Shown here one piece after another: positions 7,356 through 44,550 of a stretch of DNA of 64,000 nucleotides (positions within the stretch are counted from its first letter, which is position 1; the number at the start of each line of letters is the position of its first letter). The notes below the pieces were generated by a model. That model was not told the origin of the DNA and searched no databases. It saw nothing but the letters and a program-made list of their open reading frames with translations. The position numbers and the translations under genes were made by a program. This DNA is from Candidatus Undinarchaeota archaeon (GTDB taxonomy: Archaea; Undinarchaeota; Undinarchaeia; Undinarchaeales; UBA543): assembly GCA_964567575.1 (NCBI GenBank), contig CAZMMZ010000001.1, positions 35,800 to 99,799 of the forward strand, read 5' to 3'.

Positions 7356-8534
7356 TTAAAACTCTTCCTTTTCTTCTGGCTCTGTTCGGAAAAATAGCTT
7401 AAGAAGAAGTGGAGATAGGAAAAGAGTGAGAACCATTGAAATGATTGTGACAGGAATTAAAATACTGTTAACGAACATACTTGAACCTGCTCCAAGAACT
7501 TGAGCAGCAATCACTAAGATTAACAATTGTTCCCCACCACGAGTCATCATTCCAATTGAAACACCAAGACTGTGTTTGAAAGAAGTTCCACCAAGTAAGC
7601 ATCCGAGCATGTTTCCGATTAGCTTCGCACCAAGACCAATTCCAATTAATATCCAAACTATTGCTGAAAGACTAAACATGCTTGGATCAATTTGCAAACC
7701 CATCCATGCAAAGAACAGTGGTGCAAAAACTCCGTAAGTGAATGATGCGATTTTTGGAGAGAAGCTTCCAGTTTTTAGATATGGAGAATATGCAAGTGCA
7801 ATTCCTGCAAAGAACGCTCCAACAACTGCAGCGAATCCGAGAATATCAGCAACATATGCAAGAAGCAGAATGAGAACAAAGCCAATTGCAAATTGCGCTT
7901 CTTCTGAACGCATGTGCTCACTGTATCGGATAATGTATGGAGAAATAACTTCCATACCAATGAAAATTAAGAAGAAAATTACAATCTTGCCAATTCCAAT
8001 TCCATAATCAACAATTCCATTTGCTCCGACAAGTGCAACAGTAAATGCGAGAATTGTGTAGAAAATGAAATCCTCAATTACTGTGGCGCTGATTATTATT
8101 TCAGAAACTTTTGAACGAAGTCGTTTGAGATCAACAATTGTTTTGATTGTATTTGGTGTGGATTCACCACCCATAATCAGGGCAAAGAAAATTGCATGAA
8201 CCATCCCAAGCCCAATTGATTTGAAAATAAAGTAAGAAGGAATCAGCACGAATAAAAACCCGAAAATCGCTAGGAAGAACCCGGTCTTTCCGGCTTGTTT
8301 CATTTTCTCCATGCTGAAATTAAATCCAACTAAGAACAATAATAAAATAATTCCGAGCATTGCCATATTCTCAATCGAACCGGGAGTAATAAGTTTGAGA
8401 ACTGCAGTCCCTAAAACAACCCCAGCTAAAATTTCACCAAGCAATGCAGGTAATTTAAATCGTTCAAAAATTTCACCAAAAACTTTTGCCAATAATAAAA
8501 GAAGAATTAAGGAAAGCAAAAAAGTAACAATCAT
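7356..8534 (-). CDS. cation:proton antiporter (CPA2/Kef-type Na+/H+ exchanger family)
   Basis: 392-aa polytopic membrane ORF. N-terminus LLLLAKVFGEIFERFKLPALLGEILAGVVLG is typical of the family. Confidence 0.8.
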   Translation of the reverse strand: MIVTFLLSLILLLLLAKVFGEIFERFKLPALLGEILAGVVLGTAVLKLITPGSIENMAMLGIILLLFLVGFNFSMEKMKQAGKTGFFLAIFGFLFVLIPSYFIFKSIGLGMVHAIFFALIMGGESTPNTIKTIVDLKRLRSKVSEIIISATVIEDFIFYTILAFTVALVGANGIVDYGIGIGKIVIFFLIFIGMEVISPYIIRYSEHMRSEEAQFAIGFVLILLLAYVADILGFAAVVGAFFAGIALAYSPYLKTGSFSPKIASFTYGVFAPLFFAWMGLQIDPSMFSLSAIVWILIGIGLGAKLIGNMLGCLLGGTSFKHSLGVSIGMMTRGGEQLLILVIAAQVLGAGSSMFVNSILIPVTIISMVLTLFLSPLLLKLFFRTEPEEKEEF

Positions 8535-17533: not shown

Positions 17534-17614
17534 AGAACTACTTAAACATGTTGATAGTGACTATTGTGTTTTTTATCAAAAACCTTATAAATACTTACCA
17601 TATAGTAAATAAAC

Positions 17615-17971
17615 ATGGATAAAAAGAAAGATGGCCGCGGCCGCCCTGTAAAATCGCTAATACGTGACCGAATGCAACAAATTGTTGATGCACTCGGTGC
17701 AGCATATGGATATGAAGTTTACAAAATTTATCGAGCTGTTTTTGAGCCAGTAAGTGTGCGTTCAATGTATTATCATTTTAAACGTGGTGTGCAGCTTGGA
17801 GAATTCAAAGAAGTTGGGGCGCGACAAGAACCTGGACCATTTACTTGGGGTCGAGAGAGTACACATATTTATTATTCTCTTGGAGACGCTGCAAGTCACA
17901 AGGCAAATGTGGAAATTCAAAACAAAATTAAGGAAATTGGATTTGAATATAGAGATCCTTTGAAATTATAA
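17615..17971 (+). CDS. small putative DNA-binding protein (AT-hook-like GRGRP N-terminus)
   Basis: 118 aa beginning MDKKKDGRGRPVKSLIRDR. Ends at the boundary of the predicted origin. Confidence 0.5.
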   Translation: MDKKKDGRGRPVKSLIRDRMQQIVDALGAAYGYEVYKIYRAVFEPVSVRSMYYHFKRGVQLGEFKEVGARQEPGPFTWGRESTHIYYSLGDAASHKANVEIQNKIKEIGFEYRDPLKL

Positions 17972-18504
17972 AGAATTGTTTAATTTTTTGAAAATTTAAT
18001 AAAATGTTTATTTATTTTCCATATTGTAAATAAAAGATAAACACAGACTCCTTTGTTTCCTTTGGAAATATATATGTTGTTGTGGGTTTTATTTTTTTTT
18101 ATTATTATATTCTATATGGTTAATAAATATATATATAAGGGCTTTTTCACAACCAAGATTTCATGTGGAAATCACAAACAACCCCTTAATTTCGTGTGGA
18201 CGGCTCTTTGTTTCGAGTTTTTTGAAGTTTTTCACCTAATTTTTAACACCTACGTTGATGTTAATTTTTTTTGCACTGGAAAACATACTCACCTACACAT
18301 AAAAACTAACATAAAACCACAACCAAGAACCCCTTTATTTCCACTGAAACACATTTTACCCCCATTTCATCTGAAAACCTAAAAATAGTTCCATAAGAAA
18401 CAAAGGGGACACACCCTCACAACAAAGCTTATATACCTTAATTTCATATGCACATTGTAAGCAGGAAGTGGGGAATGGCACTTTAATGTTTACTAACTCT
18501 ATGG
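17972..18504. other. predicted chromosomal replication origin (oriC) with ORB-like repeats and a DUE
   Basis: 533-bp non-coding gap directly upstream of orc1/cdc6. ORB-like TTTC[CA]nnTGGAAA elements at 18056, 18159, 18190, 18269, 18338, 18365 and 18388. CACAACCAAGA repeated at 18148 and 18318. Confidence 0.6.
18087..18138. other. candidate duplex unwinding element (near-pure A/T tract)
   Basis: 52 nt with only 3 G/C (ttttattttttttt attattatat tctatatggt taataaatat atatataa), between ORB-like elements at 18056 and 18159. Confidence 0.5.
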
Positions 18505-18519
18505 GTGGGGTTTAGTTAC

Positions 18520-19713
18520 ATGGCACAACAAAATTTAAATGATCTTTTTGACGACTTCTTAAACAGAGCTCCGAATTTCACAAGAAAGGATGCGCTCCAA
18601 GACACATATACACCAAGTCAGGTTCCACACAGAACTGAACAAATTAACCAACTTGCATCAATTTTAGTGTCTGCTCTTCGTAATGAAAAACCAAGTAATG
18701 TTTTCATTTACGGAAAAACAGGCACAGGAAAAACACTTGTGTCTCGATATGTTGGCCAAGAACTAGAAAAAAAAGCCGCAACAACTAACACAGCACTCAA
18801 AACATGCTACATAAATTGTAAACTTGATAAAATCAACACAGCATACAGATTATTCGCGCGCTTCTTAGCAGAATTTGGTGAAGAAGTCCCACCAACCGGA
18901 TTACCAACCGATGAAGTTTATAGACATTTTCTTGATACAATGCACAAGAAAAAAGGAATATTCCTTTTAATTCTTGATGAAATTGATGCGCTCACAGACA
19001 CAGATCTTCTTTACAATTTATCTCGAATAAACACAGAATTAAAAGACAGTAGAGTTAGTTTAATCGGCATTTCAAATGATTTGTCTTTTACAAACAATCT
19101 TGACCCACGAATTAAGTCATCCTTATCTGAAGAAGAACTGGTTTTTCCACCATACAATGCAACACAAATTAAAGACATCTTATCTCAACGCGCAGAACTA
19201 GCACTTCAAAAAGACATACTTGAAGAAGATGTTATTCCAAAATGCGCAGCTCTCGCCGCACAAGAACACGGAGATGCCCGCAGGGCCCTTGATCTTCTTC
19301 GGGTTGCGTGCGAAATCGCAGAACGAACTGGCGACAAAAAAATCACAGTAATCCATGTTGACGATGCTCAGAAAAAACTTGATATTGATCGTGTTGTTGA
19401 AGTTGTTAAAACACAACCACGACAATCACAACTAGTTCTTTACAGCATTCTTTACTTAGCAGATCTAAATAAAGAAGACATTGGAACTGGGGATGTTTAT
19501 GATGTTTACCAAACTTTCTGTAAACAATCTAAATTAACTCCATTAACACAACGCCGCGTTTCTGATTTAATTTCAGAATTGGACATGCTTGGTCTTATTA
19601 CCTCTTCAGTTATTTCTATGGGACGATATGGACGAACTAGGAAAATAAAACTGGAGATGTCCGGCCGAGCTCTTGAAACCTCACGGGAGATTCTAAAAGG
19701 AGAATTGTTATGA
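18520..19713 (+). CDS. cdc6: Orc1/Cdc6 replication initiator
   Basis: AAA+ Walker A GKTGTGKT, Walker B LILDEID, and a C-terminal winged helix. ATG at 18520 is preferred over the GTG at 18505. Confidence 0.9.
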   Translation: MAQQNLNDLFDDFLNRAPNFTRKDALQDTYTPSQVPHRTEQINQLASILVSALRNEKPSNVFIYGKTGTGKTLVSRYVGQELEKKAATTNTALKTCYINCKLDKINTAYRLFARFLAEFGEEVPPTGLPTDEVYRHFLDTMHKKKGIFLLILDEIDALTDTDLLYNLSRINTELKDSRVSLIGISNDLSFTNNLDPRIKSSLSEEELVFPPYNATQIKDILSQRAELALQKDILEEDVIPKCAALAAQEHGDARRALDLLRVACEIAERTGDKKITVIHVDDAQKKLDIDRVVEVVKTQPRQSQLVLYSILYLADLNKEDIGTGDVYDVYQTFCKQSKLTPLTQRRVSDLISELDMLGLITSSVISMGRYGRTRKIKLEMSGRALETSREILKGELL

Positions 19714-37796: not shown

Positions 37797-38201
37797 TTAC
37801 TCAGCTGGAGCTTCTTCAGGTGCAGGTTCTTCTGCAGGTGCTTCTTCCGCTGGTGCTTCAGGTGCAGGTTCTTCAACCGGTGCTTCTGGAGCAGGTTCTT
37901 CTGCAGGTGCTTCTTCCGCTGGTGCGGTTTCAGCTTCTACTGGTGCTGCTTCTGGTGCAGCTCCTGCAAGAGCAGCCATTTCCTTGATTTTTGCGCAAAC
38001 GAAGTCGACAACTTCAGGTGCATCAGGAATGGTGAAGCTCTTTTTGAACCTCTTGGATCCGTCAGGTGCAAAGAAGCCGCGTGAAATCGCGATGAACTCA
38101 TTGGTTCCTTCCTCTGCTATAGCCCTTTTTCTAGCAACTTCTAAGAAGTTGTTGTTTCCGAAGGGTACTTCCTCAGCTTTAATTGTTTCAAATTCTACCA
38201 T
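37797..38201 (-). CDS. small protein with a possible PC4-like ssDNA-binding domain and an Ala/Pro/Glu repeat tail
   Basis: GGAGG about 9 nt upstream of the ATG. The N-terminal 75 aa (FLEVARKR...EFIAISRGFFAPDGSKRFKKSFTIP) loosely fits the PC4 pattern. The tail is (A/P)(A/P)EE repeats. Confidence 0.5.
   Translation of the reverse strand: MVEFETIKAEEVPFGNNNFLEVARKRAIAEEGTNEFIAISRGFFAPDGSKRFKKSFTIPDAPEVVDFVCAKIKEMAALAGAAPEAAPVEAETAPAEEAPAEEPAPEAPVEEPAPEAPAEEAPAEEPAPEEAPAE
37823..37926. repeat. perfect 35-nt direct repeat at 69-nt period inside the coding tail
   Basis: gcaggttcttctgcaggtgcttcttccgctggtgc at 37823-37857 and 37892-37926. Confidence 0.85.
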
Positions 38202-39328: not shown

Positions 39329-39643
39329 ATGAGAAACCTCCTAAAAAGAAACTTGCAAGTTATTTGCAGAAACGAAAAAAAGAATTACCAACCTATAAGC
39401 AGCTTTCTAGTGAATTTAAACGTCTTAGTAAAATTAATTGGTTCAAACCCAGAAGAATTGGCTTCTGCACGTGAGGAGGCGGCTAGCGATTTTGCACACC
39501 ATATCATGGCAGTTTTCTATGACGATAAAAAAGATCCAGCTGATCATTTAATTTGTTTATGGGAAATGGGATTCAATGTTATTGGTGTTACTAAAGGCGA
39601 TACAACTCCTGTTACATTCTTTTTAGATTATTTCAAAAAATAA
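39329..39643 (+). CDS. hypothetical protein (5' end uncertain)
   Basis: 104-aa ORF. An overlapping frame from ATG 39322 is also open for about 50 codons. Confidence 0.35.
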   Translation: MRNLLKRNLQVICRNEKKNYQPISSFLVNLNVLVKLIGSNPEELASAREEAASDFAHHIMAVFYDDKKDPADHLICLWEMGFNVIGVTKGDTTPVTFFLDYFKK

Positions 39644-39644
39644 A

Positions 39645-39920
39645 TTAATAATTCTGCGAGAAGTCATATATTTTTCTTGTATTACCAGCTGGTCCGCGCA
39701 TATTAATTTCCAATTTTAATTTGTTCTTTTTCCCGAAATTTTTTAATTGTTTATACTGCTCACGCGTGAGGTCGCGAAAAGCAGCGAGCACGCTCTTGGT
39801 TTCAGGGTTTTTTATATAACTAGCATCTATATCTTTAGTGTCAAATTTTCGCACAAATTCCTTTAATTCAGTGTGATCTGTTTCAAAGTGAATATTCACT
39901 TCGTAGCTGTGTTCAACCAT
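39645..39920 (-). CDS. hypothetical protein
   Basis: 91-aa ORF with no recognised motif. Confidence 0.45.
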   Translation of the reverse strand: MVEHSYEVNIHFETDHTELKEFVRKFDTKDIDASYIKNPETKSVLAAFRDLTREQYKQLKNFGKKNKLKLEINMRGPAGNTRKIYDFSQNY

Positions 39921-39965
39921 TATACTCTTCTTATTAATTCTGATAGTATGAAATTGTATACAAGA

Positions 39966-40337
39966 TCAACAATTACTGGGTTTCCTCCCCCCCTCTACCT
40001 GTACGAGTCGGATTAATACTTCTTTTGACTTATTTGAAGGAAGTATCTCATTTACTATTGATTTTTCTGTTAGTTTATTCTCAAGATATGTGGCTTTTTC
40101 TTGAAAGCTGTCACATTTATTATACATTTTAACAATCTCTTGTATTTCATCAACTATCCTTTCTGGTTTCATAGTAAATACACTATAGTTGCACTTGCTT
40201 TTAACTTTTTCGCTTATCTTCTTGAAATTTTTCCTTGAAATCCCCTTGTCTATACACTTGTATAGAAGGGGTTGTTTGATTAATTGTTTAGTTGATTTAG
40301 CTGCCAATTCCACAGCATAATCGCTATGCACCGGCAC
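39966..40337 (-). CDS. hypothetical protein
   Basis: 123-aa ORF with no recognised motif. Confidence 0.45.
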   Translation of the reverse strand: MPVHSDYAVELAAKSTKQLIKQPLLYKCIDKGISRKNFKKISEKVKSKCNYSVFTMKPERIVDEIQEIVKMYNKCDSFQEKATYLENKLTEKSIVNEILPSNKSKEVLIRLVQVEGGRKPSNC

Positions 40338-40442
40338 TATTCACAGTCCCCTTCAAAGGCCTTGGAAAATTCTCTTTATTTTCACACACAAATTCCACAC
40401 ACAGTCTAATTCACACATAATTTATTCGTAAATGTTTGTAGT

Positions 40443-40722
40443 ATTTTTTCGGTCTCATCTCTCACAAACGCGTATTTCACACACGAAATATGTATATATC
40501 TCTAGATCCTACTATATTCCTCTCACAAATGGCGCCGGTAGTTTAGCCTGGTATGACATGAGCTTCCCAAGCTTATAACCCGAGTTCGAATCTCGGCCGG
40601 CGCACCACTCCTTTCTCACAAACTACCCTATTTCTCACATAATAGGGACATTTGTCACTTATTTAACTCTCACAAACGAAGTTTTTAGTACATTTCTGGT
40701 GCGTCGCTTGCTATCGGTTTTG
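40443..40722. repeat. left arm of a long imperfect inverted repeat with an octamer array CTCACAAA
   Basis: CTCACAAA at 40461, 40522, 40615 and 40669; CTCACATA at 40634. 16-nt block TAACTCTCACAAACGA at 40664-40679. 19-nt block TCGCTTGCTATCGGTTTTG at 40704-40722. Confidence 0.8.
40532..40607 (+). tRNA. tRNA-Gly (anticodon CCC), CCA encoded
   Basis: Hand fold: acceptor GCGCCGG/CCGGCGC, anticodon stem TGAGC/GCTTA with loop TTCCCAA, T-arm CCGAG-TTCGAAT-CTCGG. Confidence 0.85.
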
Positions 40723-40824
40723 TAAAATGGGTTGGTTTTAACTCTCAACACTTCAAGCACCGCAAACAACCACGGAAAGTATATTCTCTACAATATAAAT
40801 TCTACATCTCACAGCAAAAATCCT

Positions 40825-40848
40825 AAAAGGTGACGTTCGTCACCTTTT
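40825..40848. repeat. perfect 24-bp palindrome AAAAGGTGACGTTCGTCACCTTTT
   Basis: Read directly. Contains TGACG/CGTCA half-sites that recur downstream. Confidence 0.85.
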
Positions 40849-41150
40849 GTCTATATTCTCTGATTAAGGGGGATATTCGGTGCATTTCCTGATATTTGGC
40901 AGATCTTGTATATTCTCTTTATTTTCACACATTTCATACTGAAACAACTCTTTTAGTACAGATCTTATAGTGGATAACCCGTCATGCGACAGATGCGACG
41001 CATCTGACGTATTTTTAATGACATATGTCTTGCTTTTATTTTTTACACTACAACTTTTGTTCGTGAGCTAAAATTTCTCCAAAATCCGTCATACGACACG
41101 TCATTTCAAAAACAGAAAGGTATTTAAACCAGAAATCACCATCTATCACT

Positions 41151-41708
41151 ATGAGTTTGCTCTCAATTTTCAGACGAAAAGACAAGAAAGCGTCGCATGA
41201 CGCGTCATGCGACACGTCAACTAGCAAAGATGACACGTCAGATCCGTCATCTTACGCTTTTGATGTAACAAGGGAAGTTGAGCATACTCAGCCTAAGTTA
41301 GAGGACCCCTTGATATCGATTTCTCGACAACTTACACAGCTACAATTCCAGGTTGGTGAGTTAAAACCAAGCATAGAGTCTGGAGTTGAAAGCCTCCGTG
41401 AAGACCATTACCGTATTATTGAGGAGCAAGCCAACAGCGTGAAAGATTATAAAGAACATTTGTCCAATCGTTTGCAAAACCTGAAGCAAGCGACACATTC
41501 GGCAGAGGACGAAATTGAGAAACTAGAAATAGATCAGAAAATTGTTGAAGCCCTTGAGGGAGGGGAGAAGCGCGCTGTTGAACTTGCTAACCAACTTGAA
41601 GCAAGTCGACAATATGTGTCTGACAGATTGAAAGTTTTGCTTGAATTAAAGCAAGTTGAGAAAATTAAACGAAGTCGTAAAGTGTATTATACCTTGAAAT
41701 CTCATTAA
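41151..41708 (+). CDS. coiled-coil protein with a C-terminal winged-helix DNA-binding domain
   Basis: 185 aa. The C-terminus RAVELANQLEASRQYVSDRLKVLLELKQVEKIKRSRKVYYTL is ArsR/MarR-like. The 5' end is encoded by palindromic DNA, so the start is uncertain. Confidence 0.55.
   Translation: MSLLSIFRRKDKKASHDASCDTSTSKDDTSDPSSYAFDVTREVEHTQPKLEDPLISISRQLTQLQFQVGELKPSIESGVESLREDHYRIIEEQANSVKDYKEHLSNRLQNLKQATHSAEDEIEKLEIDQKIVEALEGGEKRAVELANQLEASRQYVSDRLKVLLELKQVEKIKRSRKVYYTLKSH
41192..41213. repeat. perfect 22-bp palindrome GTCGCATGACGCGTCATGCGAC
   Basis: Read directly. It explains why the ORFs on both strands encode SHDASCD. Confidence 0.9.
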
Positions 41709-41722
41709 AAATCGGGCGCAGC

Positions 41723-41830
41723 CTACTTCTTTTGTCGTGCTGCCTTTTTCTTACGAGTGCGGATTTTCTTCTTTGTAGTTCTCCATCTCTCGCGTCCTTT
41801 CTTCTTAAAATTGCGTGGTCTACGTTTCAT
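41723..41830 (-). CDS. 35-aa polybasic peptide, possibly ribosomal protein eL41-like
   Basis: MKRRPRNFKKKGRERWRTTKKKIRTRKKKAARQKK, with a TATA-like aaatataaagg about 30 nt upstream. The eL41 resemblance is from memory only. Confidence 0.4.
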   Translation of the reverse strand: MKRRPRNFKKKGRERWRTTKKKIRTRKKKAARQKK

Positions 41831-41914
41831 CGTGCCTTTCTGTTGAAATAAGTCCTTTATATTTGTTTGCACAAACTGGAAAAGTATAAAAACAAAGATC
41901 TCTATATGTAGTAT

Positions 41915-42217
41915 ATGGAAGTTGCATATCTCTTTGTTGAAGTGCGGTCGCAGAAATTTAAAGAAGGTATGCAGGCGTTTGGTTTTAAGAAGAAAGACAC
42001 CAGGGGAACTAAATATTTATCGGAAAAGAAGAACTTTGAGAACTTACTTGCAAAGAAAATTTCTAATATTCCTGAGTGTTGGCTTATTGTAACGCCACTT
42101 GAAAATGAATCGGTGTTAACGGCATTTTCTAAATCCATTTATATTAAAGACAGGGATGAATTATTAAAAAATTACAGAGTTTTTTCGAATGTTGGTTCAT
42201 TCGAAGTAAAACCTTAG
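41915..42217 (+). CDS. hypothetical protein
   Basis: 100-aa ORF. Its stop is immediately followed by the third copy of the 19-nt block. Confidence 0.4.
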   Translation: MEVAYLFVEVRSQKFKEGMQAFGFKKKDTRGTKYLSEKKNFENLLAKKISNIPECWLIVTPLENESVLTAFSKSIYIKDRDELLKNYRVFSNVGSFEVKP

Positions 42218-42236
42218 TCGCTTGCTATTGGTTTTG
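42218..42236. repeat. third (internal) copy of the 19-nt block, one mismatch
   Basis: TCGCTTGCTATTGGTTTTG versus TCGCTTGCTATCGGTTTTG at 40704 (+) and 43900-43918 (-). Confidence 0.8.
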
Positions 42237-42285
42237 CAGCATACAAAACTATAAAAACCCATAAAACTATTAGTGTTTGATTAAT

Positions 42286-42567
42286 ATGAGTGATGATCCA
42301 AAAGTAAGAATTTTTTCCATTTCAGGGAGAACAGCCCCTGTCAAAACACTACTTGAAAACAGGTTGTTTTGTGAAGGCTAAGACAAAATCTACTACTGCA
42401 ACGCCCTTGGTAAAACTATAACTTGTGTACCTGGATTTAAAAATACTTGGTCAATTATTGGGGAATTTGACACCCCTGGTATTCGGACGTTTCATTATGA
42501 GTTCAACAAACTATCGAATAAGTTAAATGTGAAGTGTTCTGACTATGTGACCCCTGTTTTTAAATAA
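42286..42567 (+). pseudogene. 93-codon reading frame interrupted by one in-frame TAA (42379-42381)
   Basis: ATG 42286, 31 codons, TAA, then 61 further stop-free codons in the same frame with no internal Met, ending at TAA 42565-42567. Confidence 0.35.
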
Positions 42568-42574
42568 TATATAA

Positions 42575-43168
42575 TCAGTCGCTTCCTCTCGCTTTTGCAG
42601 TTTGAACTAATGAATCATATTCACTTGCAATATGCGTCCAGAATTTACTGAATTGTGTACTAGGTCTCACAATTTTCTTATAGAATTTCTGCTTTGAGTG
42701 TTCGTGATGGAATTCTTCACGCTCTAAACGCACCATTCCAACACGTCGCAAACGTGGCAGAACAACATTGTAAAACGTTGCTTTTGAGAAGTCTTTTTCA
42801 CGAATAAACGCTCCAATATCATCTCCACGCATCACATGATTCGCGAACAACTTATTCATGAATTCTATTGCGATCAAATGATATTTTCGCTGATATTTCG
42901 GTGGAAACACCAATTCAAGGATTTGATTGAGCTCCAGCCTAACGTTTTTGTGATATGCCCAATCTCCGCGCAATCTCTTAATATCATCGAGCCACATTGA
43001 CTCTTTGCTTGGAACACCCCGTGATGCAGGACCCCCGACTGAAATTGTTGGTTTTTTTCGCTGATCTGCTTCAACAACTTGCACAACTTCGGATGCGTAC
43101 TCTATATCATTATGGTGTTTTTTATCCATGGTTTGCGGTATGCTATCTTGGTATTTAAAACTTACCAT
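42575..43168 (-). CDS. hypothetical protein, possible C-terminal winged helix
   Basis: 197 aa. SKATFYNVVLPRLRRVGMVRLE is a wHTH-like segment. The ATG lies at the centre of palindrome TACCATAATGGTA (43163-43175). Confidence 0.5.
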   Translation of the reverse strand: MVSFKYQDSIPQTMDKKHHNDIEYASEVVQVVEADQRKKPTISVGGPASRGVPSKESMWLDDIKRLRGDWAYHKNVRLELNQILELVFPPKYQRKYHLIAIEFMNKLFANHVMRGDDIGAFIREKDFSKATFYNVVLPRLRRVGMVRLEREEFHHEHSKQKFYKKIVRPSTQFSKFWTHIASEYDSLVQTAKARGSD

Positions 43169-43200
43169 AATGGTAGACTCGGCCAGGTACTCGCGCGCCC

Positions 43201-43392
43201 AAAAACCTGTTTCGGTTTACTATTATGGTGTGGTTGCGCGATTTCTATTGACAGGGGCTAGGGTACACGGTTAACAAGATGTTTTTCCCAAAGAGTTTGA
43301 GAAAAACCTGTCGGCAGTTTATTGTAATGGTGTTATTTATGGGATTTTAAATTTCAAAAAAATAGAAAGGGTGAAAAACACCGTTATGGTGT
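43201..43392. repeat. imperfect ~32-nt direct repeats (AAAAACCTGT..CGG..TTTAyTrTwATGGTGT)
   Basis: Copies at 43201-43233 and 43302-43333, and a partial copy at 43374-43392. TTATGGTGT also occurs at 43110. Confidence 0.7.
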
Positions 43393-43401
43393 TTTTCGTG
43401 A

Positions 43402-43746
43402 TTATCCGCCTTCGAAAGTTTCTTGTTCTTTGATCTGCAGTGTTAAACTCTTGAAAAGCAAATTTTCAAAATCTGAAGCAAGACTGTGTCCAGATTCTGT
43501 AAGTTTGATATATTTCACACGGCCGTCCTTGTTAAATTCAACAAGTCCATGTTCCTGCATCTTTTGAAGCAGTTTCACAGTGTGAGCATACGTGCAATCG
43601 ATCTTTTTTGCAAGATTTGACGCGTATGCATCTTTATCAGTACGTTTTATGTGTACAAGCAGCCTAGCTGGCTTTTTTCTTAAAAACATTTCTTCTAGTT
43701 CTGTATTAACATTCATTAGTAAACCCCTCAAATGTTCTAACTCCAC
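43402..43746 (-). CDS. winged-helix transcriptional regulator (MarR/ArsR/TrmB-like)
   Basis: 114 aa: YASNLAKKIDCTYAHTVKLLQKMQEHGLVEFNKDGRVKYIKLTESG. Confidence 0.65.
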   Translation of the reverse strand: MELEHLRGLLMNVNTELEEMFLRKKPARLLVHIKRTDKDAYASNLAKKIDCTYAHTVKLLQKMQEHGLVEFNKDGRVKYIKLTESGHSLASDFENLLFKSLTLQIKEQETFEGG

Positions 43747-43899
43747 AAAAACTAGGCCGATTCACACCAATTTCCACCCAAAGTCACTGGTTGCGAGAGT
43801 TAGATTTTATATCCTCCAAAACAGGTTTTGGAAAGACATCATTTCTAAAGCGGTGTTCCTATATAACCTTTTTCTTTTCTGCAAATTCCTTGCTTTTTG

Positions 43900-44219
43900 C
43901 AAAACCGATAGCAAGCGAATCATCTGGGGTAATACTCAAATCCTCGTTTGTGAGAGTTACGGCTACTACTTAAACGCGAATAATTTGAGATCAGGGAAAA
44001 ATGTTAGAGAAAATGTAAAAATTAGTAATTTGTGAGACCGCAAAAATAGGTCTCACCCCAGATTTTTGTGAGGATGCAAAATGTGAGAAAACACCTCCTT
44101 GCTTGCGCATGGAGATGCGGTTTGTGAGGGTCCGATGGGGAATTTACTGGATTTGAATGACCCAAATTTACCCCCAAACTTGAAAATATTTTTGTGAGAG
44201 TTTCGAAACCGAAAAAATG
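43900..44219. repeat. right arm of the long imperfect inverted repeat with an octamer array TTTGTGAG
   Basis: TTTGTGAG at 43948, 44030, 44066, 44122 and 44192; AATGTGAG at 44081. Reverse complements of the 19-nt block at 43900-43918 and the 16-nt block at 43945-43960. Confidence 0.8.
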
Positions 44220-44367
44220 AACCTCACATCCCCATATGAAAACAACATTATGGTTTTTCAAAAACAAATTCAGCATATCGCAGCATAGTGGTTTCATTAA
44301 ATCTATAATGGGTTTTGTAAAACCTGTGTCTTGTTTTATTGGGTTCTATACAAGTGTATAGACAACC

Positions 44368-44550
44368 CTATTTCTTAAGCTCAGCCATCTCTTGTTTTAA
44401 AAGATCTTGTACAACAACTGGCTCTACATATACTGCAATCCCTCGCTTCCTAGCGGTTTCCATTACTTTCGTCTTCTTAGTTAACACAGCCTTTCTCTTA
44501 CTTTCAATCATCTTAAGGGCCCTAAATGTTTTCTCCTCTAATATCTTCAT
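44368..44550 (-). CDS. hypothetical small basic protein
   Basis: 60-aa ORF downstream of and co-oriented with the TPR/J-like gene. Confidence 0.35.
   Translation of the reverse strand: MKILEEKTFRALKMIESKRKAVLTKKTKVMETARKRGIAVYVEPVVVQDLLKQEMAELKK

What the first reader, a model, noticed from the sequence alone, without database searches (positions are those of the whole stretch)
40664..43960. Perfect two-block inverted repeat (16 nt + 19 nt) delimiting the core, with a third copy of the 19-mer in the middle
Seen directly:
- TAACTCTCACAAACGA (40664-40679), a 24-nt spacer, then TCGCTTGCTATCGGTTTTG (40704-40722) on the left.
- The exact reverse complements lie on the right in mirrored order: 19-mer at 43900-43918, a 26-nt spacer, 16-mer at 43945-43960.
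- The spacers are only weakly similar (tttagta versus ttgagta).
- A third, direct-orientation copy of the 19-mer with one mismatch (TCGCTTGCTATTGGTTTTG, 42218-42236) starts at the first base after the stop codon of ORF 41915-42217.
- No obvious target-site duplication flanks the 16-mers (ttatt on the left, cggct on the right).

Conserved blocks with diverged spacers suggest selection on two protein- or RNA-recognition sites rather than a recent duplication.
Basis: seen in the sequence. Interest (0 to 1): 0.7.

Follow-up and report, generated by a model that had tools for sequence, protein, structure and literature searches.

The report
Mirror-image binding-site arrays flanking regulator genes
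The two perfect inverted blocks are real, and they are the best-conserved pieces of two mirror-image ~0.5-kb arrays of short protein-binding boxes that flank a trio of small DNA-binding-protein genes at the same chromosomal spot across the archaeal phylum Undinarchaeota, a cassette that has flipped at least twice in evolution and whose function is unknown.

Summary
Its scope was underestimated.

- **Box A.** The 16-mer is the innermost copy of a polar box, consensus tAAC-TCTCACA-AA. It occurs 5-6 times on each side, always pointing inward, and nowhere else in the 64 kb.
- **Box B.** The 19-mer (core TGCTATCGGTTT) lies 24-25 nt inside the innermost Box A on both sides.
- **Arms.** They run from an outer palindrome (TCTATACANNTGTATAGA) at 40249 and 44345 to Box B. 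A tRNA-Gly gene sits inside the left array.
- **Cassette.** Between the arms are two convergent gene sets encoding three winged-helix (wHTH) proteins, plus lineage-specific fillers.
- **Conservation.** The source is a DPANN archaeon of the Undinarchaeota. The trio lies between the same flanking genes in all 12 related genomes, and 10 of 12 carry inward-facing Box A arrays.
- **Inversions.** The cassette occurs in both orientations relative to its flanks, which requires at least two independent inversions.

It is not a transposon, a virus or plasmid, an RNA, or the Cdc6-linked origin, which lies about 24 kb away.

Best reading (about 0.5): these are arrays of sites bound by the cassette's own wHTH proteins, and they overlap conserved TATA boxes. 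A chromosome-maintenance role (centromere-like or iteron-like) is not excluded.

The parts
40237..40267 (.). Outer boundary of the left arm. It contains the palindrome TCTATACACTTGTATAGA (40249-40266).
   Evidence: (I1: 31 nt, 87% complementary to 44344-44374). The palindrome is conserved in L017, L018 and L011 at 7866.
40444..40468 (+). Outermost left Box A (TCTCACAAA, 40460-40468), preceded by TTTTTTCGGT.
   Evidence: The TTTTTCGG + CTCACA combination recurs on the right arm and in L007 and L011.
40521..40529 (+). Box A copy, 2 nt upstream of the tRNA-Gly gene.
40532..40607 (+). tRNA-Gly(CCC) gene embedded in the left Box A array.
   Evidence: ARAGORN; Rfam tRNA, 60.1 bits. The same arrangement is seen in L001, L007, L017 and L018.
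40614..40641 (+). Two Box A copies: TCTCACAAA at 40614 and TCTCACATA at 40633.
40664..40679 (+). It is preceded by the palindrome GACATTTGTC (40647-40656).
   Evidence: It is conserved in both arms of L017, L018 and L011.
40704..40722 (+). It lies 24 nt inside the 16-mer.
   Evidence: The core is near-invariant in all six arms of three species; one arm (the L017 ORF185 arm) has one substitution after GGTTT.
40792..40844 (+). Conserved promoter-like block: a TATA-like box (AATATAAATT), then Box A (TCTCACAG) 6 nt downstream, then the palindrome GGTGACGTTCGTCACC.
   Evidence: block conserved in the window, L017 and L018.
41115..41130 (+). Conserved BRE/TATA-like block (GAAAGGTATTTAAACC), about 20 nt upstream of the ORF185 ATG.
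41151..41708 (+). ORF185: a disordered basic N-terminus, a long helix (coiled coil), and a C-terminal ArsR-like wHTH.
   Evidence: Pfam HTH_5/TrmB, sub-threshold; NCBIfam ArsR/SmtB, E 1e-7; AF2 pLDDT 78. The family was found only among close relatives (7 proteins), and a homologue is present in all 12 loci that carry the full trio.
41723..41872 (-). Small K/R-rich ORF of 49 aa. It is a possible fourth cassette gene.
   Evidence: A similar C-terminal sequence is present in L007 at 7872-8105. Not tested further.
41915..42217 (+). ORF100: a lineage-specific filler gene with no family match.
   Evidence: It is absent from L007, L017 and L018, and tblastn finds it only in L001.
42218..42236 (+). 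Third Box B copy (1 mismatch), directly after the ORF100 stop codon and 12 nt upstream of a TATA-like CTATAAAAAC.
42575..43168 (-). ORF197: a disordered N-terminus with the conserved motif SRGVPSKESxW, then a wHTH and a long C-terminal helix. A degenerate Box B (42579-42597, +) overlaps its stop codon.
   Evidence: AF2; Foldseek gives only generic wHTH matches; alignment. tblastn confirmed 194 relatives in the genome collection; the 80 loci kept are from Undinarchaeota, Micrarchaeota and a few MAGs labelled otherwise.
43402..43716 (-). wHTH114: a small MarR/HTH_27-type winged-helix protein. The likely start is the ATG at 43716; the ORF is open back to the GTG at 43746.
   Evidence: Pfam HTH_27, E 1.6e-7, above the curated cut-off. 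PDB sequence matches: AF_1382 at 9e-6, AspA at 0.04. Gene calls of 104 aa in L001-L005.
43790..43874 (-). Conserved promoter region of the wHTH114 operon. It holds a distal BRE/TATA (43858-43874), the palindrome TCCAAAACAGGTTTTGGA (43815-43832), and a proximal TATA followed by a degenerate Box A (43790-43814).
   Evidence: blocks conserved in three species.
43900..43918 (-).
43944..43959 (-). The coordinates are corrected by one base.
44029..44217 (-). The rest of the right Box A array: copies at 44029, 44065, 44080, 44121 and 44191, and the TTTTTTCGGT element (44208-44217).
44344..44374 (.). Outer boundary of the right arm. It contains the palindrome TCTATACAAGTGTATAGA (44345-44362).

Best explanation
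The two perfect blocks are two kinds of protein-recognition box, Box A and Box B.

**Box A.** TCTCACAAA, extended to tAAC-TCTCACA-AA. It is polar and present in many copies.

**Box B.** TGCTATCGGTTT. There is one copy per arm, plus internal copies.

**Where they sit.** Both belong to a pair of mirror-image ~0.5-kb control regions at 40237-40727 and 43895-44374. These regions flank a conserved chromosomal cassette of three winged-helix DNA-binding protein genes, arranged wHTH114 -> ORF197 -> <- ORF185. The cassette is found in Undinarchaeota archaea.

**Shown.**
- The architecture.
- Its conservation across the phylum at one syntenic site.
- The inward polarity of the arrays.
- The fixed spacing between Box A and Box B.
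- The placement of boxes next to conserved TATA-like promoter blocks.
- The repeated evolutionary inversion of the cassette.

**Inferred.**
- The cassette's own wHTH proteins bind these boxes.
- Box B, lying 12-30 nt upstream of TATA boxes, and the promoter-proximal Box A copies, lying 5-7 nt downstream of TATA boxes, give autoregulation of the two convergent operons.
- The upstream multi-copy Box A arrays act as a cooperative loading or sink platform.
- Because the arms are inverted homologous sequence, recombination between them flips the cassette without disturbing the wiring between promoters and genes. This is why both orientations persist.
For: **Clustering and polarity.**
- All 7 exact TCTCACAAA copies in 64 kb lie in the two arms, + on the left and - on the right.
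- Across ten array-bearing genomes each arm holds 3-9 inward CTCACA copies against 0-2 outward copies.
- The consensus from 103 instances is tAaCTCTCACAaa.

**Conservation.**
- Arrays flank the trio in 10 of 12 Undinarchaeota genomes.
- The trio always lies between the PRC/p134 side and the SerRS side.

**Footprints in three species.**
- Only the boxes, the palindromes and the BRE/TATA-like blocks survive. Spacers and inter-box DNA have diverged.
- The innermost Box A and Box B keep a 24-25 nt spacing.
- Box A follows a conserved TATA box in both arms, in AATATAAATT-N6-TCTCACA and in ATATAAAATCTAACTCTCGCA.
- Box B precedes GAAAAAGGTTATATAGG.
- L017 and L018 carry extra Box B copies just upstream of the ORF185 promoter.

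**Proteins.** All three conserved proteins are wHTH DNA binders.

**Inversions.**
- The cassette is in orientation A in the window, L017, L018, L021, L025 and L028.
- It is in orientation B in L011, L019, L022, L023, L024 and L027, with identical flank order.
- Orientation A falls in two separate clades of both the SerRS and ORF197 trees.
Against: - No binding data exist, and which protein binds which box is unknown.
- ORF197's recognition helix is invariant even in Micrarchaeota and in the two Undinarchaeota (L022, L023) that lack Box A arrays. No protein-site co-variation was found.
- Five to seven upstream copies spread over 250-450 bp are more than simple autoregulation needs.
- Only some Box A copies have a TATA-like element next to them.
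- The promoter assignments rest on sequence resemblance and conservation only.
- The NJ trees used to count inversions are rough.
Confidence: 0.5

Rival explanations
1. It is a chromosome-maintenance element, not primarily a transcriptional one. On this reading the polar arrays are a centromere-like or iteron-like platform bound by the cassette's wHTH proteins. This would resemble plasmid P1 or F, where the rep gene is flanked by iteron arrays, or TubR/tubC, or AspA of pNOB8. Alternatively it could be a captured second origin, as with Sulfolobus oriC3 and WhiP.
For: - DNA-binding protein genes flanked by arrays of a polar site is the classic layout of iteron replicons and many partition cassettes (established knowledge).
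- The locus is unique in 64 kb and lies about 24 kb from the probable Cdc6-linked origin.
- Box A spacing shows weak helical phasing, with best period about 10.9 bp and p about 0.02-0.08.
- wHTH114 and ORF185 give faint matches to the centromere-binding protein AspA.
- The number of sites exceeds what autoregulation needs.
Against: - No ParA/TubZ-type NTPase, Rep protein, Orc1 or helicase lies in or next to the cassette.
- There is no AT-rich unwinding element between the arrays; they are 3.2 kb apart and the interval is filled with genes.
- There is no GC-skew inflection at 40-44 kb.
- Box spacing is irregular (15-139 nt), unlike contiguous iterons or parC repeats.
- No plasmid or viral relatives were found.
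- The AspA matches are generic wHTH similarity (E 0.04 and above).
Confidence: 0.22
2. It is a programmed invertible segment. On this reading the inverted blocks are recombination sites for a site-specific invertase, and the cassette flips as a switch.
For: - Perfect inverted blocks bound the segment.
- The cassette is found in both orientations among species, with at least two independent flips.
- tRNA genes stay on the p134 side in both orientations. That fits breakpoints inside the arms, though weakly, because the tRNAs differ.
Against: - No serine or tyrosine recombinase domain was found in any cassette or neighbouring ORF.
- All 4 informative contigs of this species, and all 4 of the L007 species, show one orientation.
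- Because both arms are equivalent and the promoters lie inside Box B, flipping changes no promoter-gene connection, so a switch would have nothing to switch.
Confidence: 0.1
3. It is a relic of a mobile element, either a transposon with multi-site subterminal repeats like Tn7 or Mu, or an integrated plasmid or virus. On this reading the inverted ends and regulators were domesticated.
For: - Several inward-facing subterminal sites in both ends resemble Tn7 and Mu ends (established knowledge).
- A tRNA gene lies in the arm.
- Small wHTH genes are typical of archaeal mobile elements.
- Variable small genes accumulate inside the cassette and just outside the arms.
Against: - The chromosomal site is the same in 12 genomes spanning a phylum.
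- There is no transposase or integrase, no target-site duplication, and no other copies.
- The best-conserved box is the innermost one, not the terminal one.
- There are no relatives in viral, phage or plasmid collections.
- There is no compositional anomaly.
Confidence: 0.08
4. It is a polar replication-fork barrier or trap of the Tus-Ter or RTP-Ter type. On this reading two opposed groups of polar sites are bound by a small wHTH protein encoded on the spot.
For: - Two opposed groups of polar sites are present, together with a locally encoded small wHTH protein. B. subtilis rtp lies next to its inverted Ter sites, and RTP is a wHTH protein (established knowledge).
- RTP appears among the Foldseek hits for ORF197 (ranks 33-43).
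Against: - The RTP hits have E of 0.36 and above, which is generic wHTH similarity.
- The locus is about 24 kb from the probable origin, not opposite it.
- There is no skew switch at the locus.
Confidence: 0.05

Closest known systems
Autoregulated archaeal wHTH regulators with operators overlapping BRE/TATA or the transcription start (for example Lrs14/AbfR, MDR1, Phr, TrmB-type)
   Same: - Small wHTH proteins are encoded next to their presumed sites.
- Boxes lie immediately downstream or upstream of conserved TATA-like elements.
- ORF197's best structural match is AbfR2, an Lrs14-family protein.
   Different: - There are two mirror-image arms, each with 5-7 additional polar copies spread over ~0.25-0.45 kb.
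- Three different wHTH proteins and at least two box types are involved.
- The layout is conserved across a phylum.
- Binding has not been demonstrated.
Iteron-type replicons (P1 incC-repA-incA, F oriS-repE-incC) and repeat-array centromeres (R1 parC, TubR/tubC, pNOB8 AspA)
   Same: Genes for DNA-binding (winged-helix) proteins are flanked by arrays of a short polar binding site, at a single locus per replicon.
   Different: - There is no Rep or Par NTPase.
- The element is chromosomal and syntenic.
- Spacing is irregular.
- The arrays are inverted relative to each other and 3.2 kb apart.
- No plasmid relatives were found.
Archaeal oriC with inverted ORB/mini-ORB elements next to orc1/cdc6
   Same: Clusters of a polar repeat lie in inverted orientation on the two sides of a central region.
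   Different: - The box is unlike the ORB core (TTCCA-N-TGGAAA).
- The central region is 3.2 kb of genes, not a DNA unwinding element (DUE).
- orc1/cdc6, with its own ORB-like repeats, lies 24 kb away.
Site-specific invertible segments (Hin/Gin/Fim type)
   Same: Short inverted repeats bound a segment that is found in both orientations, here between species.
   Different: - There is no recombinase.
- No within-population polymorphism was seen.
- No promoter-gene rewiring would result from a flip.
Tn7/Mu-type transposon ends
   Same: Several inward-oriented, irregularly spaced copies of one binding site occur in each end.
   Different: - There is no transposase and no target-site duplication.
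- The chromosomal site is fixed.
- Conservation is strongest at the inner copy, not the terminal one.

Membership tests
Transposon / MITE with terminal inverted repeats | A transposase is encoded in the element, or (for a MITE) many dispersed copies exist. | tested here: not met
   No transposase or integrase domain was found in any core or adjacent ORF. All exact Box A copies and all 5 matches of the 19-mer in 64 kb lie at this locus.
Transposon / MITE with terminal inverted repeats | A target-site duplication, and insertion in different contexts in different genomes. | tested here: not met
   There is no duplication at the 16-mers or at the outer palindromes. The site lies between the same flanking genes in 12 genomes.
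Site-specific invertible segment | Inverted repeats at the boundaries of the segment. | tested here: met
Site-specific invertible segment | A dedicated serine or tyrosine recombinase in or beside the segment. | tested here: not met
   Pfam, NCBIfam, PADLOC and PHROGs scans give only wHTH hits.
Site-specific invertible segment | Both orientations coexist within a population. | tested here: inconclusive
   Only one orientation is seen in 4 informative contigs of this species and in 4 of the L007 species. Both orientations occur between species. No read-level data were available.
Archaeal oriC (ORB type) | Adjacency to orc1/cdc6 and an ORB consensus. | tested here: not met
   orc1/cdc6 is at 18505-19713 with its own TTCC..GGAA repeats upstream. 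Box A is a different motif.
Archaeal oriC (ORB type) | A short AT-rich unwinding element between the inverted repeats, and a skew inflection. | tested here: not met
   The arrays are 3.2 kb apart with genes between them, GC content is flat, and there is no cumulative-skew extremum at 40-44 kb.
Iteron replicon / partition centromere | An array of repeated binding sites next to the gene of the binding protein. | tested here: inconclusive
   Arrays and wHTH genes are present. However, spacing is irregular, phasing is only weak, and binding is untested.
Iteron replicon / partition centromere | A Rep initiator or a ParA/ParM/TubZ-type NTPase partner. | tested here: not met
   None was found in the cassette or its immediate neighbours.
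Autoregulatory operator arrays of wHTH transcription factors | Sites overlap or abut the promoters of the regulator genes. | tested here: met
   Conserved TATA-like blocks have Box A 5-7 nt downstream and Box B 12-30 nt upstream. The promoters are inferred from sequence only.
Autoregulatory operator arrays of wHTH transcription factors | The encoded proteins bind the boxes specifically. | not testable with these tools
   This needs EMSA, DAP-seq or ChIP. No protein-site co-variation was detectable.
Structured RNA element | A conserved secondary structure with covariation, or an Rfam match. | tested here: not met
   z-scores range from -1.06 to +0.35. The hairpin at the right copy is not conserved. 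Rfam finds only the tRNA.

The most novel reading that the evidence does not exclude
The locus is a previously unrecognised cis-acting chromosome-maintenance element of Undinarchaeota. On this reading, two opposed arrays of polar boxes are bound by three dedicated winged-helix proteins encoded between them. The whole would act as a centromere-like or SMC-loading site, an iteron-like secondary origin, or a fork barrier near oriC. It would be the first such element defined in DPANN archaea, and it would not depend on Orc1 or ParA.
Probability: 0.2. Interest if true: 0.8.

Novelty: new variant of a known kind. Interest (0 to 1): 0.5.

Why it matters
Undinarchaeota are uncultivated archaea with very small genomes, so about 1 kb of conserved non-coding DNA plus three dedicated DNA-binding proteins at a fixed site near the origin is a notable investment.

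- If the arrays are only operators, this is a clean, phylum-specific example of multi-site autoregulation in archaea.
- It is also a natural example of inverted repeats that repeatedly flip a gene cassette without changing its regulation.
- If the arrays serve replication, segregation or chromosome organisation, they would give a defined DNA-protein handle on chromosome biology in DPANN archaea, where none is known.

Either way, the Box A and Box B motifs and the three proteins can be tested directly in vitro without cultivating the organism.

Tried and rejected
- **RNA element.** Folding of both arms, the third copy and the L017 homologues gave z-scores from -1.06 to +0.35. Rfam found only the tRNA.
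- **Mobile element.**
  - There is no transposase or integrase.
  - ORF197 has no relatives in viral contigs.
  - The 4.1-kb element gives no blastn hit in the plasmid or phage collections.
  - The 14-mer of Box A in viral contigs, and the 19-mer in metagenome contigs, gave only single hits. These are at chance level, apart from the known relative L134, which is the same contig as L009.
- **Defence system.** PADLOC gave only generic Csa3/CasR-type wHTH similarity.
- **Primary replication origin.** Rejected because orc1/cdc6, ORB-like repeats and the skew maximum lie at about 17-19.7 kb.
- **Specific function from structure.**
  - The AF2 models of ORF197 and ORF185 gave only generic wHTH matches in the PDB, with no hit at E <= 0.001.
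  - PDB sequence searches were equally generic.
- **Protein-site co-variation.** The recognition helices do not differ between array-bearing genomes and the array-less L022 and L023.
- **Helical phasing of Box A.** The signal is weak and not robust.
- **Inversion breakpoints.** I could not locate them, because the arms are too diverged between the A and B lineages.
- **Literature.** The founding Undinarchaeota paper (PMC7414124) mentions no inverted repeat, winged-helix protein or Cdc6, and its two mentions of replication are unrelated to this locus. No paper combines 'Undinarchaeota' with 'replication origin'.

Full report
**1. The observation**

Both blocks exist as perfect inverted pairs.
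- The 16-mer TAACTCTCACAAACGA lies at 40664-40679 (+) and at 43944-43959 (-).
- The 19-mer TCGCTTGCTATCGGTTTTG lies at 40704-40722 (+) and at 43900-43918 (-).
The spacers are therefore 24 and 25 nt.
- The third 19-mer copy (one mismatch) lies at 42218-42236, directly after the TAG stop of ORF 41915-42217.
- Two weaker copies, each with 3 mismatches, lie at 42579 (+) and 41475 (-).

Chance does not explain this. There are five matches to the 19-mer at up to 3 mismatches, against 0.01 expected.

**2. The blocks are part of a larger structure**

The core of the 16-mer, TCTCACAAA, occurs seven times in the 64-kb window against 1.55 expected, and none of 100 shuffles reached that count. All seven lie next to the core.
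- Four are on the + strand at 40460-40676.
- Three are on the - strand at 43947-44199.

One-mismatch variants raise this to 5-6 copies per side, always pointing inward. I call this motif Box A and the 19-mer Box B.

Aligning the left flank with the reverse complement of the right flank shows a series of blocks in register:
- an outer palindrome, TCTATACA(C/A)(T/G)TGTATAGA, at 40249-40266 and 44345-44362;
- a TTTTTTCGGT element before the outermost Box A;
- further Box A copies;
- the 16-mer;
- Box B.

The arms therefore span about 40237-40727 and 43895-44374. A tRNA-Gly(CCC) gene (40532-40607) sits inside the left array, bracketed by Box A copies.

**3. What lies between the arms**

There are two convergent gene sets.

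*Left set (+ strand).*
- ORF185 (41151-41708) has a disordered basic N-terminus, a long helix and a C-terminal ArsR-like winged helix.
- ORF100 (41915-42217) has no family match and occurs only in this species.

*Right set (- strand).*
- wHTH114 is an HTH_27/MarR-type protein, above the Pfam cut-off. Its likely start is at 43716.
- ORF197 (42575-43168) has a disordered N-terminus with a conserved SRGVPSKESxW motif, a winged helix and a long C-terminal helix.

Structure and sequence searches give only generic wHTH relatives: AbfR2/Lrs14, PadR, MarR, TFIIE-alpha, ArsR/SmtB, AspA and RTP. No hit reaches E <= 0.001. No recombinase, transposase, Rep protein or partition NTPase is present.

**4. Relatives**

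The best matches are Undinarchaeota MAGs, so the source is a DPANN archaeon of that phylum. tblastn confirmed 194 relatives of ORF197 in the genome collection. The 80 loci kept come mostly from Undinarchaeota and Micrarchaeota MAGs, each from a different assembly. ORF185 was found only among close relatives.

In all 12 loci that carry the full trio, wHTH114 -> ORF197 -> <- ORF185 is conserved. It always lies between the PRC-barrel/p134 side and the SerRS side.

Box A arrays flank the trio in 10 of the 12 loci. Each arm holds 3-9 inward CTCACA copies against 0-2 outward copies. L022 and L023 lack arrays, and so do the Micrarchaeota loci. The consensus of 103 instances is tAaC-TCTCACA-aa.

The window, L017 and L018 have ORF197 proteins 83-86% identical, while their intergenic DNA is largely scrambled. 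Among these three, the only surviving blocks are the following:
- the outer palindrome;
- the Box A copies;
- the 16-mer;
- the Box B core TGCTATCGGTTT, at a constant 24-25 nt from the 16-mer;
- BRE/TATA-like blocks;
- two kinds of small palindrome.

The full 19-nt identity in this species exceeds the conserved 12-13-nt core. Some homogenisation between the arms is therefore likely (inference).

**5. Relation to promoters**

- In both arms a conserved TATA-like box is followed 5-7 nt later by a Box A copy. On the left this is AATATAAATTCTACATCTCACAG at 40792-40814. On the right it is ATATAAAATCTAACTCTCGCA on the - strand within 43790-43814.
- Box B lies about 25 nt upstream of the conserved GAAAAAGGTTATATAGG block (43858-43874).
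- The third Box B copy lies 12 nt upstream of another TATA-like element.
- L017 and L018 carry two or three extra Box B copies just upstream of the ORF185 promoter block.

These placements are typical of archaeal repressor and activator sites (established knowledge). The promoters themselves are inferred from sequence only.

**6. Inversions**

The flank order and orientation are the same everywhere: PRC+, p134-, ... cassette ... SerRS+.
- In orientation A, ORF185 is next to the p134 side. This holds for the window, L017, L018, L021, L025 and L028.
- In orientation B, wHTH114 is next to the p134 side. This holds for L011, L019, L022, L023, L024 and L027.

In NJ trees of both SerRS and ORF197, orientation A falls in two separate clades. 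At least two independent inversions are therefore required.

Within this species, and within the L007 species, every informative contig has the same orientation. There is thus no evidence for population-level switching.

**7. What it is not**

- **A structured RNA:**
- **A currently mobile element, virus or plasmid:** the site is syntenic, there are no mobility genes, no compositional anomaly and no database relatives.
- **A dispersed repeat:**
- **The Cdc6-linked origin:** an orc1/cdc6 gene lies at 18505-19713. It has a gene-poor, ORB-like upstream region, and the cumulative-skew maximum lies at about 16-18 kb, some 24 kb to the left.

**8. Interpretation**

Best supported (about 0.5): the arms are mirror-image control regions built from binding boxes for the cassette's own wHTH proteins.
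- They autoregulate the two convergent operons.
- The extra upstream Box A copies serve as a cooperative platform.
- The inverted homology occasionally flips the cassette, without consequence for regulation.

The excess of sites, the polarity, the weak helical phasing and the position near the origin keep a chromosome-maintenance reading alive (about 0.2). That reading covers centromere-like, iteron-like and barrier roles. However, no motor, initiator or unwinding element is present. Programmed inversion, a mobile-element relic and a fork trap are less likely.

**9. Novelty**

Nothing resembling this locus is described in the Undinarchaeota literature I could search. None of the four core proteins matches a curated family with a specific function. 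In kind, it is a new variant of known themes: operator or iteron arrays with cognate wHTH proteins, and inverted-repeat-mediated inversion. It is not a demonstrably new class.

Noticed in passing
window 17534-19713: Probable canonical replication origin. An Orc1/Cdc6 gene lies at 18505-19713. It is preceded by about 1 kb of gene-poor DNA with ORB-like TTCC..GGAA inverted and direct repeats (for example 18050-18071 with 18385-18406, and ATGTGGAAAT at 17907 and 18163). The cumulative GC-skew maximum lies at about 16-18 kb.
   Followed up: partly
window 40532-40607; L018 12350-12445; L011 8176-8271; L022 8658-8751: tRNA genes are embedded in the arms. In the window clade it is tRNA-Gly(CCC), bracketed by Box A copies. 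The 96-nt L018 call implies an intron. L011 has a 96-nt tRNA-Trp on the opposite strand in the equivalent arm. In L022 the tRNA-Gly is inverted relative to the flank.
   Followed up: partly
window 41723-41872 (-); L007 7872-8105: A small, extremely K/R-rich ORF (49 aa) lies between ORF185 and ORF100. A similar basic C-terminal sequence is present in the related species. It may be a fourth conserved cassette gene.
   Followed up: no
window 42237-42574: A 338-nt stretch without a convincing ORF lies between the third Box B copy (42218) and a degenerate Box B overlapping the ORF197 stop codon (42579). It looks like decayed coding sequence, or an insertion that came in together with ORF100.
   Followed up: no
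window 37797-38201 (-): The neighbouring 134-aa protein, which has an A/P/E-rich tail, is 96% identical over its first 75 residues between species whose SerRS is 84% identical. It has no family match. It is an unusually conserved small protein adjacent to the locus in all Undinarchaeota loci.
   Followed up: no
window 40974-41214, 40647-40656, 40829-40844, 41020-41029: Further repeats lie upstream of ORF185 and in its 5' end. CGTCATGCGACA-type direct repeats occur three times. GACA-N-TGTC / TGAC-N-GTCA palindromes are positionally conserved in L017 and L018. This is probably a third operator type.
   Followed up: partly
window 39329-40337; L007 9763-10335; L011 12716-13741: The genes immediately outside the arms differ between species: three small ORFs here, a 190-aa ORF in L007, and an RNA cyclase in L011. 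The interior of the cassette also gains small genes; L011 has five extra. The borders of the arms behave as insertion hot spots.
   Followed up: no
window 40249-40266 within ORF 39966-40337 (-): The left outer palindrome lies inside the N-terminal part of the called 123-aa ORF. Either that gene starts further downstream, or the palindrome is coding there.
   Followed up: no
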